DNA from: Octopus vulgaris
Lineage: Eukaryota
DNA length: 64,000 nucleotides
NCBI GenBank assembly: GCA_951406725.2
Contig: OX597816.1
Location: 36,332,001-36,396,000 of the forward strand
Reading direction: 5' to 3'
The notes beneath the pieces are model-generated. The model worked only from the letters and a program-made list of their open reading frames with translations. It was not told the DNA's origin and did no database searches. Each line of letters begins with the position of its first letter. Position 1 is the stretch's first letter. The translations under genes and the position numbers were made by a program. Positions 8,486-12,633 of the stretch are shown one piece after another.

Positions 8486-8490
8486 TAATA

Positions 8491-8579
<89 letters not shown>
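8486..8579. repeat. (TAA)n tract flanking the 5' end of the Dong element
   Basis: Pure AAT run ending immediately before acaccgggggac at 8581. Confidence 0.95.
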
Positions 8580-8580
8580 T

Positions 8581-11500
8581 ACACCGGGGGACGTTTAAGG
8601 TGTAAGAAGGAAAATTCAGAGCTCCGAAATCTATCCACAAACATCGAAAACAAGGACATCCTATGGAGCCAAAGTTTTGCTAACAAAGAATTGGACTGTA
8701 TCCGAGTAAGTAATACTAATTGAAATTTATTACTATTTTCGAAACGAAATGATGTATTTTGACTCGATATTATCTCCACCTCTAACGCAACACATGTAAA
8801 CATGCGTGGAACATCACGATCATCCCCGACCTCAAACACCATGTACAAAGGAACTACGAAGAAATTAAATGCCACTGATACTATTCAACCCAAGAATAAC
8901 AATCGAGCGGTACGTACATTAAACCTACAACAAAAAATGTACGAAAAACTACACGTGCGAAATAATGTGACAACAGAAATAAACGGACCGGTACCCTACG
9001 AAAATGACGACCGTCAAAATAATGGGCCGGACGTTTGTACCTCATGTCCCGCAAATAAAACCCAAAAGACGTAAATGGACACGTGAGGAATACATTTCTA
9101 CCTTACACGCATACTACACAGCAGTACTCTACCCCAAAAATGAAAATACAACAACACATACATATAAAATATGGAAGGAAAATAATATAGATATAGACTC
9201 GGATACAGCAATGAACCCTAATAAATTAGCTAACGTACGAAGATACATTCTCAACACAAAAAAAATATCAGAAATAGAAATAGAACACCCTAAAAGAAAA
9301 CATACACCAGGAAAATGTAGATAGAAGCCACACAACAATGCCCAATAATATAAACACTGAAACTGTAAAACACGAAGACAACAAACGCAACATTCCCAAC
9401 AAACACGATGTAAACAACGAAGGGGAGCCTAATGATTATGATAATATAAAAAATAAAATAATCTTAGAACTGAAAACCACAGAGCCCAAAATGGACCACC
9501 GACCATACCTCCCAAGAATAAAAATAAACGAAATAACAACACCAATTATAAACAGCATAAACCTAGCCGTCACTGAACTAGCCACTGAAACAAAAAAAAG
9601 TGATATCACTGAACTAAATGACTTGATATACGCAGCAGCCACTGCAGCCACAAAAGAAGCTGGATACTCACCCAAACCCGCCCAAACAGGAGTACCACCA
9701 CCCAAACAAACCCTGTGGATAAATAACATCCAAAACAAAATTTAAAAAATTAGAAAAGACCTGTCGATTCTTAATGAAATCAGCAAAGAATCAACGCTAC
9801 TGAGCAACAAAAAGAGAACAAAAATGCTCCGCAAATATAACATCACAGAAAAAGATTTGCCGGAGATAAAAGAAAAGCTGAAGCAAGATATCCTTGCCAA
9901 AGCTCAAAGGATCCGCCGGTACGAGAAACGCCAACGCTTCTTTGAACAGAACAAAAAGTTCAACACCAACCTCAAAAAGTTCTACCAAGATCTGGGAAAA
10001 AATAAAATAGAAGTCACTGCAGCACCAACGGCAGAAGAGTTGGAAGAATTCTGGAGAGAAATATGGTCGGCGAACGAACAGCCAAAAAAAGGAGTATCAA
10101 AATAACAAACTCGGCATCTGAACAACTTTGGACCCCCATAACAACTGAAGAGGTCACCCAGGCACTGCAAAAACTAAGCAACTGGAAGGCTCCTGGGCAT
10201 GACAAGATCTCCAACTTCTGGTTGAAATATCTAACCGGAATGCACAAAAAGCTGGCTGAAAACTTTAACAGCATACTAGCAGAGCCAGAGACAATGCCTG
10301 AATGGCTCACGAAGGGGAAAACCATCTTAATTCCCAAATCAAATGAAACAGCAAAACCAGAAAACTACAGACCAATAACCTGCCTCCCTACTATGTTCAA
10401 GGCATTTACTGCAGTGATATCGAAAAGACTGAACAAGCACCTGGACGAAAACAAACTGTTCCCAGAAGAGCAGAAAGGATGCCGCAAAGGCTCATATGGC
10501 TGTAAAGATCAACTAATGATTAATAAAGCCGTAACTGAAGACAGCCACAGAAAGAAGAAAGGCCTCAGTATGGCCTGGATTGACTACAAAAAGGCGTTTG
10601 ATAGCATCCCCACACATGGATCCTTGAAACACTAGCCATTAACAAAGTAGCACCAACAATCATAAAATTCATAGAGCACTCTATGAATAAATGGCAAACA
10701 GTCCTACATCTCCAAACAAAAGAGGGACTCATGAAAACCAAAGACATCCCCATCAGAAGAGGAATATTCCAGGGAGACACGCTCTCTCCACTCCTTTTCT
10801 GCTTGGCACTGTCACCTCTATCTGATATGCTAAATAGAACTGGATGCGGATATAAATGTTACGGCAAAACGATCAGCCACCTTTTATATATGGATGACCT
10901 AAAACTATACGCTGCAAATGACAAACAGCTGGAAACACTATTAAAGACAGTTCATGGATTTACCAAAGAAATAGATATGAAATTTGGATTAGAAAAATGC
11001 GCCAAAGTAACCATGAAAAGAGGAAAACTAGTTAAAAGTAACAACATCACACTAGATAAAACCAATGAAATAAAAGAATTAGACCAAAGCCAAACTTACA
11101 AATACTTAGGAATCCATGAACTAGATAAGACACAACACACACAAATGAAAGAGAAAATTAAAAAAGAATATTATAGACGAGTTAGATCAATACTAAAAAC
11201 AGAGCTCAATGCTAAAAACAAGATAATAGGTATCAACACTTTAGCTGTCCCAGTTATAAGTTACAGCTACAATATCCTTAACTGGACACGAAATGAACTG
11301 TCCAAAATAGATAGGAAAACAAGAAAAATACTGACAAGATCTAGGATGCATCACCCAAAATCTGACATAGAAAGACTATATATACAACGTATAGAAGGTG
11401 GTAGAGGCCTTATACAGCTGGAAAACTACTATAAAATAACCACCATAGGACTGCAAAAATACCTACTTCAGAAGGAAGGAAAACTGATCCAGATAGCAGC

Positions 11501-12551
11501 AAAACACGAGCAAAACAAAAAACTGTTCTCAGTATTTAAGGAAGCTGACAAATACAAACAAGAAATCATACCACATAATAAACACGAAGAAGAAGAAGAA
11601 GAAGAAGATGATGAAGAAGAAACAACAAAAGCTATAAGACAAATGAAATCCAAACTAAAAATAGAACAGCAACGAACCATGATAAAACGATGGCAAGAAA
11701 AGCCCCTTCATGGTAAATACTGCACTAAACTAAACGCAAAAGAAATAGACAAAGAAAGATCCCAGCAATGGTTGAGAAGCTCAGGACTCAAAGCAGAAAC
11801 AGAGGGATTTTTAATTGCAGCACAAGACCAAAGCCTCCCCACCAGAAATTACCAAAAACATGTAATGAAAAGAAATATTACAAGTAACTGCAGAATATGT
11901 GGAGATGGACAAGAAACAATAAATCATATTATCTCTGGATGCCCAGTCCTGGCTAAGAAGGAATATATTCACAGACATGACAGAGTTGGAACCTACATAC
12001 ACTGGAAGCTATGCCAACATTATGGAATAACAACAGAAAAAAGATGGTATAGGCACACACCAGAAAAGGTTACAGAAAACGAGAAAGCAACCATACTCTG
12101 GGATATGCCGATACACACAGATAGAGAAATTAAGGCCAACAGACCAGATATAGTTGTCAGAGATCATGAAGAAAAAAATGCTTTCTAATTGATGTATCAA
12201 TACCGGCAGATGACAACGTGTCTCTAAAAGAAATGGAGAAACTCTCAAAATACAAAGACCTGGAAATAGAGGTAACTAGAATGTGGAATCTGAAAACAGA
12301 AACAATTCCTATCATAGTAGGTGCATTAGGCATAATAAAAAAATATTCAGACAAATACATAACAAAAACACCAGGACTTACAAACACATATATCATACAG
12401 AAAAATGCACTACTAGGCACTGCACACATCCTACGCGGAGCACTTTCCATACAATAACCATCAGAGCATCACAACAAATCACAGCACATACCCAAGGCAC
12501 ACAGAGCTGCGCTCGGTAGTGAAGTGAAAGCACGCTATAAAAATAAAACTA

Positions 12552-12554
<3 letters not shown>
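8581..12554 (+). mobile_element. Near full-length Dong/R4-clade non-LTR retrotransposon (single ORF: RT, zinc knuckle, restriction-like endonuclease); frameshifted in this sequence
   Basis: Colinear ORF pieces: N-terminal RRKWTREE..LANVRRYIL (9004-9324); RT LSNWKAPGHD, NYRPITCL, EQKGCRKG, AWIDYKKAFDS, RGIFQGDTLSPLLF, HLLYMDDLKLY; knuckle CRICG..ETINHIISGC; RLE RHDRV, WD..NRPDIVV..LIDVSIP..EKLSKYKDL. No APE domain. Flanked on both sides by (TAA)n. Confidence 0.93.
10683..12188 (+). pseudogene. Largest open segment (501 aa) of the Dong ORF: RT C-terminal part, thumb, CCHC knuckle and start of the RLE domain
   Basis: ORF track protein contains QGDTLSPLLF, YMDD, CxxC-x7-H-x4-C and NRPD; it continues by frameshift into 12218-12457. 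Confidence 0.9.

Positions 12555-12633
<79 letters not shown>
12555..12633. repeat. (TAA)n tract at the 3' end of the Dong element
   Basis: Pure AAT run directly after ...ataaaactactg. Confidence 0.95.

What the first reader, a model, noticed from the sequence alone, without database searches (positions are those of the whole stretch)
8486..12633. Near full-length Dong/R4 retrotransposon sitting exactly inside a (TAA)n microsatellite
Seen: a ~3.97-kb single-ORF element with RT, CCHC knuckle and PD-(D/E)xK-type endonuclease, with pure AAT runs abutting both ends. Established: R4-clade RLE elements are sequence-specific, and Dong (Bombyx) and fish Dong/Rex6-like elements insert in TAA repeats. 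Inference: this is a TAA-targeting, site-specific retroelement of a cephalopod, complete enough to reconstruct the protein. Such RLE-RT proteins are of interest as targetable insertion enzymes.
Basis: partly seen in the sequence, partly recalled or inferred. Interest (0 to 1): 0.7.

Follow-up and report, generated by a model that had tools for sequence, protein, structure and literature searches.

The report
Octopus Dong retrotransposon with stuttering start
This is a broken, full-length copy of a young jumping-gene family that sits almost only in TAA repeats, as related Dong elements are known to do; the one extra is that about half of the family's complete copies begin with their first ~24 bases repeated in tandem, likely a trace of false starts while the insertion is finished.

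Summary
Largely confirmed, and mostly known. Window 8580-12555 (+) is a full-length, 3,976-bp R4/Dong-type non-LTR retrotransposon (RT, CCHC knuckle, restriction-like endonuclease) between two (TAA)n runs. This copy's ORF is broken by five frameshifts and a stop; two other copies have an open 1,227-codon frame, so no repair is needed. Targeting holds: 97 of 105 5'-intact copies and 15 of 17 truncation junctions have (TAA)>=4 within 35 bp upstream (background about 1%), none the opposite strand. TAA-targeting Dong elements are published for insects, molluscs and cnidarians, and young Dong-R4 families for Octopus vulgaris. This scan noted such elements before on other DNA. One addition: 53 of 103 unselected 5'-intact copies start with 2-18 tandem copies of their own first 16-44 nt (33 in one copy chosen for its array). 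The trait is scattered on the copy tree. An unrelated 558-bp TAA-inserted passenger element shows it too (1,006 joints genome-wide). I infer repeated re-priming of second-strand synthesis. No 5' HDV-like ribozyme was found. A tree with named R4, Dong, Rex6, R2 and NeSL references could not be built. Verdict: new member of a known kind, interest 0.27.

The parts
8486..8579 (+). (TAA)n target run, upstream side
   Evidence: 31.3 units, 95% matches
8580..12555 (+). Full-length R4/Dong-type non-LTR retrotransposon, ORF broken in this copy
   Evidence: co-linear with 70 contiguous full-length copies at 92-99% identity (count includes this copy)
8580..8801 (+). 5' UTR; its first 16-44 nt are the unit tandemly reiterated in other copies (single here); no ribozyme found
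8802..12457 (+). Coding region (1,214 aa from first Met in intact copies), with frameshifts near 9034, 9288, 10084, 10608, 12172 and a stop at 9743-9745
9040..9350 (+). Four-helix N-terminal domain with two invariant Trp, likely the divergent Myb/SANT domain of R4/Dong; no Cys in the first 330 aa
   Evidence: fold match weak
10330..11115 (+). Reverse transcriptase domain, YMDD at 10887
11889..11942 (+). CCHC zinc knuckle (C-x2-C-x9-H-x4-C)
11973..12300 (+). Restriction-like endonuclease (RHD, RPD, LIDV, EKLSKY motifs), split by the frameshift near 12172
12458..12555 (+). 3' UTR, fixed family 3' end
   Evidence: same end point in 29 of 29 other loci
12556..12634 (+). (TAA)n run, downstream side
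   Evidence: 100% matches
12635..12713 (+). Short endonuclease fragment of an older Dong-like family in the same TAA cluster
   Evidence: 75% nt, 51% aa identity
12714..13172 (+). 3' half (positions 292-558) of the 558-bp non-coding TAA-tailed element, a TAA run, a partial duplicate and another TAA run
47446..48003 (+). Complete 558-bp non-coding element between TAA runs; its family shows the same 5' reiteration

Best explanation
This is a decayed full-length copy of a young R4/Dong-type retrotransposon family whose copies sit in (TAA)n repeats in one fixed orientation, and which likely inserts by nicking the repeat and reverse-transcribing its RNA from the nick. [quoted passage not shown] Inferred from R2/R4 knowledge: the N-terminal Myb-like domain binds the repeat, the endonuclease nicks the TTA strand, and target-primed reverse transcription starts at the TAA-like 3' end of the RNA. 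Also inferred: the upstream TAA strand then primes the second strand on the cDNA end with only a few paired bases. The primer often extends about 18-25 nt, falls off and re-primes at the cDNA end, which leaves tandem copies of the element's first bases. The same or a sister Dong protein likely moves the 558-bp passenger.
For: TAA upstream in 97 of 105 5'-intact copies (102 within 100 bp) and 15 of 17 truncation junctions, against about 1% background. TAA downstream in 29 of 29 and >=4 units in 74 of 83. Open 1,227-codon frames in L136 and L140 with all motifs. Reiteration in 53 of 103 copies not chosen for it; 114 exact joints genome-wide, reversed control 0. Units start at the element's 5' end and stop at varying points, with mixed lengths inside one copy (L065, L088, L154). 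Multi-unit status is not clustered on the tree: 33 changes against a shuffled mean of 34.3, with 198 of 500 shuffles as low. Copy-private leader bases recur through an array (L089 8 of 8, L151 4 of 4). One contig of an independent run has a reiterated head (X16). The unrelated 558-bp element has 1,006 such joints. Microhomology priming is the published model for R2 (PMC3774820 section 17; PMC2718515 passages).
Against: No named R4, Dong, Rex6 or NeSL sequence was in the tree, and the Myb fold match is weak (best Z 5.8 to Sap1; Myb/SANT chains Z 4.1-4.8; Foldseek nothing at E<=0.001). No cleavage or priming step was observed. The copy tree is poorly resolved (11 of 99 branches starred, bootstrap not converged), so its test has low power. 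Long arrays (15-33 units) could have grown by slippage after insertion. Leaders are mostly the same between copies too (21 of 27 AGAA). The 558-bp element shares no detectable 5' or 3' sequence with this family. One 5'-intact copy (L186) has no TAA within 100 bp and no microsatellite at the junction.
Confidence: 0.85

Rival explanations
1. The 5' tandem units are made during first-strand synthesis: at the RNA's 5' end the RT jumps onto the 3' ends of short abortive or degraded 5' transcripts, again and again.
For: R2 proteins jump between templates (PMC11371274 passages). L069 has an internal 80-nt piece of the element in front of its 5' end, which looks like a template switch. Variable unit ends fit.
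Against: Copy-private leaders repeated through an array point to one template molecule. Short RNAs would have to exist for two unrelated elements. No RNA data were available.
Confidence: 0.2
2. The units are a minisatellite grown after insertion by slippage or unequal exchange, or inherited 5' monomers as in mouse L1 (recalled).
For: Long homogeneous arrays (L193, L194, L168) with point changes between units. Leader sharing within a copy fits this too.
Against: Every unit starts at the element's own 5' end. Lengths mix within a copy. The trait does not follow the tree. It recurs in an unrelated sequence that inserts in the same target.
Confidence: 0.2
3. The TAA flanks are not a target preference but a TAA tail plus its duplication or expansion, or survival of insertions in neutral repeats.
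For: All copies end in TAA, so the 3' run alone proves nothing. Octopus-like DNA is rich in microsatellites (132 rows).
Against: [quoted passage not shown] It is often the tail of an older neighbour (L045, L046, L051, L054). The far commoner AT/TG repeats of the window are not the flank, and polarity is fixed.
Confidence: 0.05

Closest known systems
Dong (Bombyx mori), DongAg, DongBg (snail Biomphalaria), Darwinula Dong1/Dong2; R4/Dong clade (PMC3812793 and PMC7998251, passages)
   Same: [quoted passage not shown]
   Different: Different family and host. B. mori Dong has a self-cleaving HDV-like ribozyme at its 5' end (PMC3774820 passages); none was found here. The 5' reiteration is not mentioned in the passages read.
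Dong-R4 families of Octopus vulgaris and O. bimaculoides (PMC13282606, PMC9115989, PMC8967140; passages)
   Same: Five recently active Dong-R4 families with 1,129 near-full-length insertions are counted in O. vulgaris; a full-ORF Dong consensus exists for O. bimaculoides. This family may well be one of them.
   Different: The passages give no target site or 5' junction analysis ('TAA' occurs 0 times in PMC13282606). I did not compare sequences with their libraries and did not open their supplements.
R2 retrotransposons (PDB 9nl2, 9nl3, 9dou, 8gh6)
   Same: RT-CCHC-endonuclease layout and, by inference, target-primed reverse transcription. Tandem duplications at 5' junctions occur in some R2 lineages (13-28 nt; about 5% of junctions in flour beetle B, 70% in one wasp); one listed junction has three 19-20-nt repeats (PMC3774820).
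   Different: Only about 130 bits of similarity. R2 targets 28S rDNA and has N-terminal zinc fingers. Its duplications are of target-derived 28S sequence, mostly single, not up to 33 copies of the element's own first bases.

Membership tests
R4/Dong clade | One ORF of about 1,200 aa: RT, then CCHC knuckle, then restriction-like endonuclease | tested here: met
   Open 1,227-codon frames in L136 and L140 with YMDD, CCHC, RHD, RPD, LIDV, EKLSKY; the window copy has the same parts, broken
R4/Dong clade | No N-terminal zinc fingers | tested here: met
   No cysteine in the first 330 aa of L136; no Pfam zinc finger there
R4/Dong clade | Divergent N-terminal Myb/SANT domain | tested here: inconclusive
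   Two invariant Trp in 77 sequences; Atlas top hits Myb_Rap1 at 0.83 and 0.79, lead level only; four-helix model pLDDT 83; Myb/SANT chains at Z 4.1-4.8, not above unrelated helix-turn-helix folds
Dong (TAA-specific members) | Insertion in (TAA)n | tested here: met
   97 of 105 and 15 of 17 5' junctions; background about 1%
R4/Dong clade | RT groups with named R4, Dong and Rex6 against R2, NeSL and Hero | tested here: inconclusive
   No named references or outgroups among the hits. In a 34-row unrooted tree the element falls in a 99% group with coral, Clytia and killifish proteins; louse, psyllid and moth proteins lie further out. Scores 854 bits to a Pediculus RT against about 130 to R2 (different programs)
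Bombyx Dong / Ascaris R4 | 5' HDV-like self-cleaving ribozyme | tested here: inconclusive
   No Rfam ribozyme match up to E 5. My descriptor found no canonical L3 loop in 6 copies but was crude and had no positive control. 5' UTR folding z -0.17
R2 clade | 28S rDNA target and N-terminal zinc fingers | tested here: not met
   Flanks are TAA, not rDNA; no N-terminal Cys

The most novel reading that the evidence does not exclude
Dong proteins in this genome prime the second DNA strand by a stuttering, copy-release-reprime cycle on the cDNA end. This writes new minisatellites of up to 33 units, and perhaps (GAA)n runs, at the head of about half of all full-length insertions and of a 5,000-copy passenger element. 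The genome then holds more than a thousand frozen records of the least understood step of non-LTR retrotransposition.
Probability: 0.45. Interest if true: 0.5.

Novelty: new member of a known kind. Interest (0 to 1): 0.27.

Why it matters
The element and its target are known biology. The family offers natural intact proteins of a clade with no solved structure among the PDB hits (only R2), but a TAA repeat is a poor address for targeted gene insertion. The 5' reiteration matters more. How the second strand is primed is called the greatest uncertainty of the R2 model (PMC3774820) and an open gap for R2-based gene insertion (PMC11371274). Here it can be tested with many natural junctions and a simple target.

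Tried and rejected
Ribozyme: Rfam on 8400-13300 gave four chance-level hits, none a ribozyme. My HDV descriptor gave nothing in 4 of 6 copies and only loose, non-canonical hits in 2. The 7-bp hairpin at the very 5' end of this copy is weakened in the larger subfamily, so I rejected it as the cause of the reiteration. Shared tail or head between the 558-bp element and this family: none (249 and 413 of 500 shuffles score as high); Rfam found no tRNA or ribozyme in it. Expression: no RNA holder listed; the 14 'RNA?' holders are guesses and the four laid runs were contigs, so nothing is claimed. Foldseek on the N-terminal model: no match at E<=0.001. The original Dong paper (PMC309301) is not held. 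The genome-wide TAA count for the 558-bp element was not obtained; only 20 + 5 loci were read. Literature on 5' reiteration: searches and scan look-ups found no description for Dong. Kojima and Fujiwara 2004, Repbase and Dfam were not available and may describe it.

Full report
Observation. Window 8580-12555 (+) is a 3,976-bp, A-rich element between a TAA run at 8486-8579 (95% pure) and a perfect one at 12555-12634. Its frames carry an RT domain (Pfam RVT_1, E 3.9e-15 and 1.5e-12), a CCHC knuckle and restriction-like endonuclease motifs. The best solved relatives are R2 proteins. The ORF is not open in this copy. Against natural intact copy L136 it shows five single-base frameshifts (about 9034, 9288, 10084, 10608, 12172), a stop at 9743-9745 and 86 mismatches in 3,958 bases. 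Several breaks are in homopolymers and the stop context recurs in 12 of 105 copies, so some may be read errors.

Family. An exact 29-nt 5' motif has 99 matches genome-wide. I examined 105 5'-intact copies: 40 (including this one), 63 more and 2 chosen for long arrays. Seventy are contiguous full-length copies, and two (L136, L140) have an open 1,227-codon frame, 1,214 aa from the first Met. L156 and L157 are a duplicated pair and count twice. Contigs of four public runs cover all 30 bins of the element; holders came from 7 studies and 5 organism codes.

Target. (TAA)>=4 ends within 35 bp upstream in 97 of 105 copies and within 100 bp in 102. Of the 8 exceptions, 6 have a (GAA)n run at the junction, one has an inserted 80-nt piece of the element, and one (L186) has neither. 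None has a TTA run there. Among the 29 other 3'-anchored loci, 17 truncation junctions were visible (four internal deletion joints and loci cut by the fetch limit left out); 15 have TAA within 35 bp. All 29 end in TAA. The background is 1.2% and 0.9% of window positions. Because truncated copies have TAA upstream too, and the run is often a neighbour's tail, this is target choice and not only a tail.

Protein. The best homologues are 50-54% identical over the 902-aa frame of L080 and mostly unnamed; named ones come from louse, psyllid, shrimp, corals, Clytia, moths and a killifish. Motifs align across them. The first 330 aa have no cysteine. A four-helix N-terminal domain with two invariant Trp has Myb-type top hits in the Atlas at lead level and only weak fold matches. 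PMC7998251 (passages; supplement search) describes this layout for R4/Dong and lists Pediculus among its members; I could not confirm that P0110 is the accession it used. A 34-row tree without outgroup or named references places the element with coral, Clytia and fish proteins. Membership therefore rests on architecture, similarity and target, not on a formal tree.

The extra feature. In 55 of 105 copies (53 of 103 without the two chosen ones) the first bases of the element are repeated in tandem between the TAA run and the element: 33 copies have three or more units, and the maximum is 33. Unit lengths run from 16 to 44 nt, with a mode of 24. The window's copy has one unit. A genome-wide pattern finds 114 joints, the reversed control none. 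Units begin at the 5' end and stop at varying places, with mixed lengths inside a copy. On a tree of 102 copies built without the head, the trait needs 33 changes against a shuffled mean of 34.3, so it is not inherited, though the tree is poorly resolved. Within arrays, 158 of 173 internal units share the copy's majority leader; private leaders recur throughout L089 and L151, but most copies share one leader anyway. One contig from an independent run shows a reiterated head, which argues against an assembly artefact. Ten copies have (GAA)n at the junction, possibly the shortest form of the same stutter on a GAGAA leader (inference).

A passenger with the same signature. A 558-bp non-coding element lies at 47446-48003, and its 3' half lies just after this element at 12714-12981. 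Its 26-nt head has 5,320 exact matches. Of 20 loci read, 19 have TAA directly upstream, the other has a reiterated head, and all 20 have a TAA tail. Tandem head joints number 1,006. It shares no sequence with this family, so the reiteration follows the target and machinery, not the sequence. Which Dong family moves it is not shown. An earlier scan note (e1-9595651) described this passenger.

Mechanism. By established knowledge of R2/R4 elements, the protein nicks one target strand and reverse-transcribes from the nick. Second-strand priming without long homology is proposed to use microhomology and added bases (PMC2718515 passages; PMC3774820 passages and part 1 of section 17). I infer that the upstream TAA strand primes on the cDNA end, extends about 18-25 nt, releases and re-primes, once or many times. 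Within the overall reading I put this at about 0.55, jumping to short RNAs at 0.2 and later expansion at 0.2; they can combine. Why units mostly stop after TTTAAG is unexplained. Unlike B. mori Dong, no 5' ribozyme was found; the test was weak.

What is known. TAA is the published target of Dong, DongAg and the snail's DongBg (PMC3812793 passages) and of Dong in most insects, molluscs and cnidarians. O. vulgaris has 5 recently active Dong-R4 families with 1,129 insertions (PMC13282606 passages); see also PMC8967140 and PMC9115989 (passages). Their supplements, which I did not open, may hold this family. The scan noted TAA-targeting Dong elements many times on other DNA. Tandem 5' duplications are known at R2 junctions but are target-derived. 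I found no description of multi-unit reiteration of a Dong element's own head (searches; bioRxiv 10.1101/2024.12.14.628481 passages, not relevant); subscription papers and Repbase were out of reach.

Verdict. A new member of a known kind. The 5' reiteration is real and frequent, and is a modest mechanistic lead. Interest 0.27.

Noticed in passing
window 47446-48003 and 12714-13114: 558-bp non-coding element with a fixed 5' end, TAA on both sides, more than 5,000 heads genome-wide and the same 5' reiteration; likely a Dong passenger.
   Followed up: partly
window 46055-46426: 5'-truncated copy of an older Dong-like family (53% aa identity) directly after a TAA run.
   Followed up: partly
window 12635-12713; L091 near 1064: Dong pieces joined directly to the middle of the 558-bp element; either template-switch chimeras or nested insertions with deletion.
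   Followed up: no
L087 (G000:C10, about 106095.1-106096.7 kb): Internally deleted copy (element 2-956 joined to 3760-3976) with an 18-unit head. Eight other copies break off near element position 824-841, possibly a deleted subfamily.
   Followed up: no
L078, L082, L094, L098, L137, L150, L165, L167, L169, L191: (GAA)n run at the 5' junction, between the upstream flank and the element.
   Followed up: partly
L045, L046, L051, L054: Head-to-tail stacking: the upstream TAA run is the tail of another copy of the family.
   Followed up: no
window 16918-17667 (-), 21110-21487 (+), 55034-55699 (+), 15381-15620 (-): Other decayed RT or endonuclease fragments, 23-37% aa identity to the family.
   Followed up: no
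window 1-567 and 2605-3171: 567-bp direct duplication at 99.8% identity.
   Followed up: no
window 24293-24527, 25986-26213, 26338-26566, 44694-44834, 49527-49766: Several copies of a ~235-bp SINE-like repeat in both orientations.
   Followed up: no
window 59617-60151: 535-bp (TTA)n array with no element of this family in it.
   Followed up: no
P0114, P0117, P0119: Some relatives carry an extra Pfam PF02338 domain (OTU-like protease, name recalled); N-terminal in P0114.
   Followed up: no
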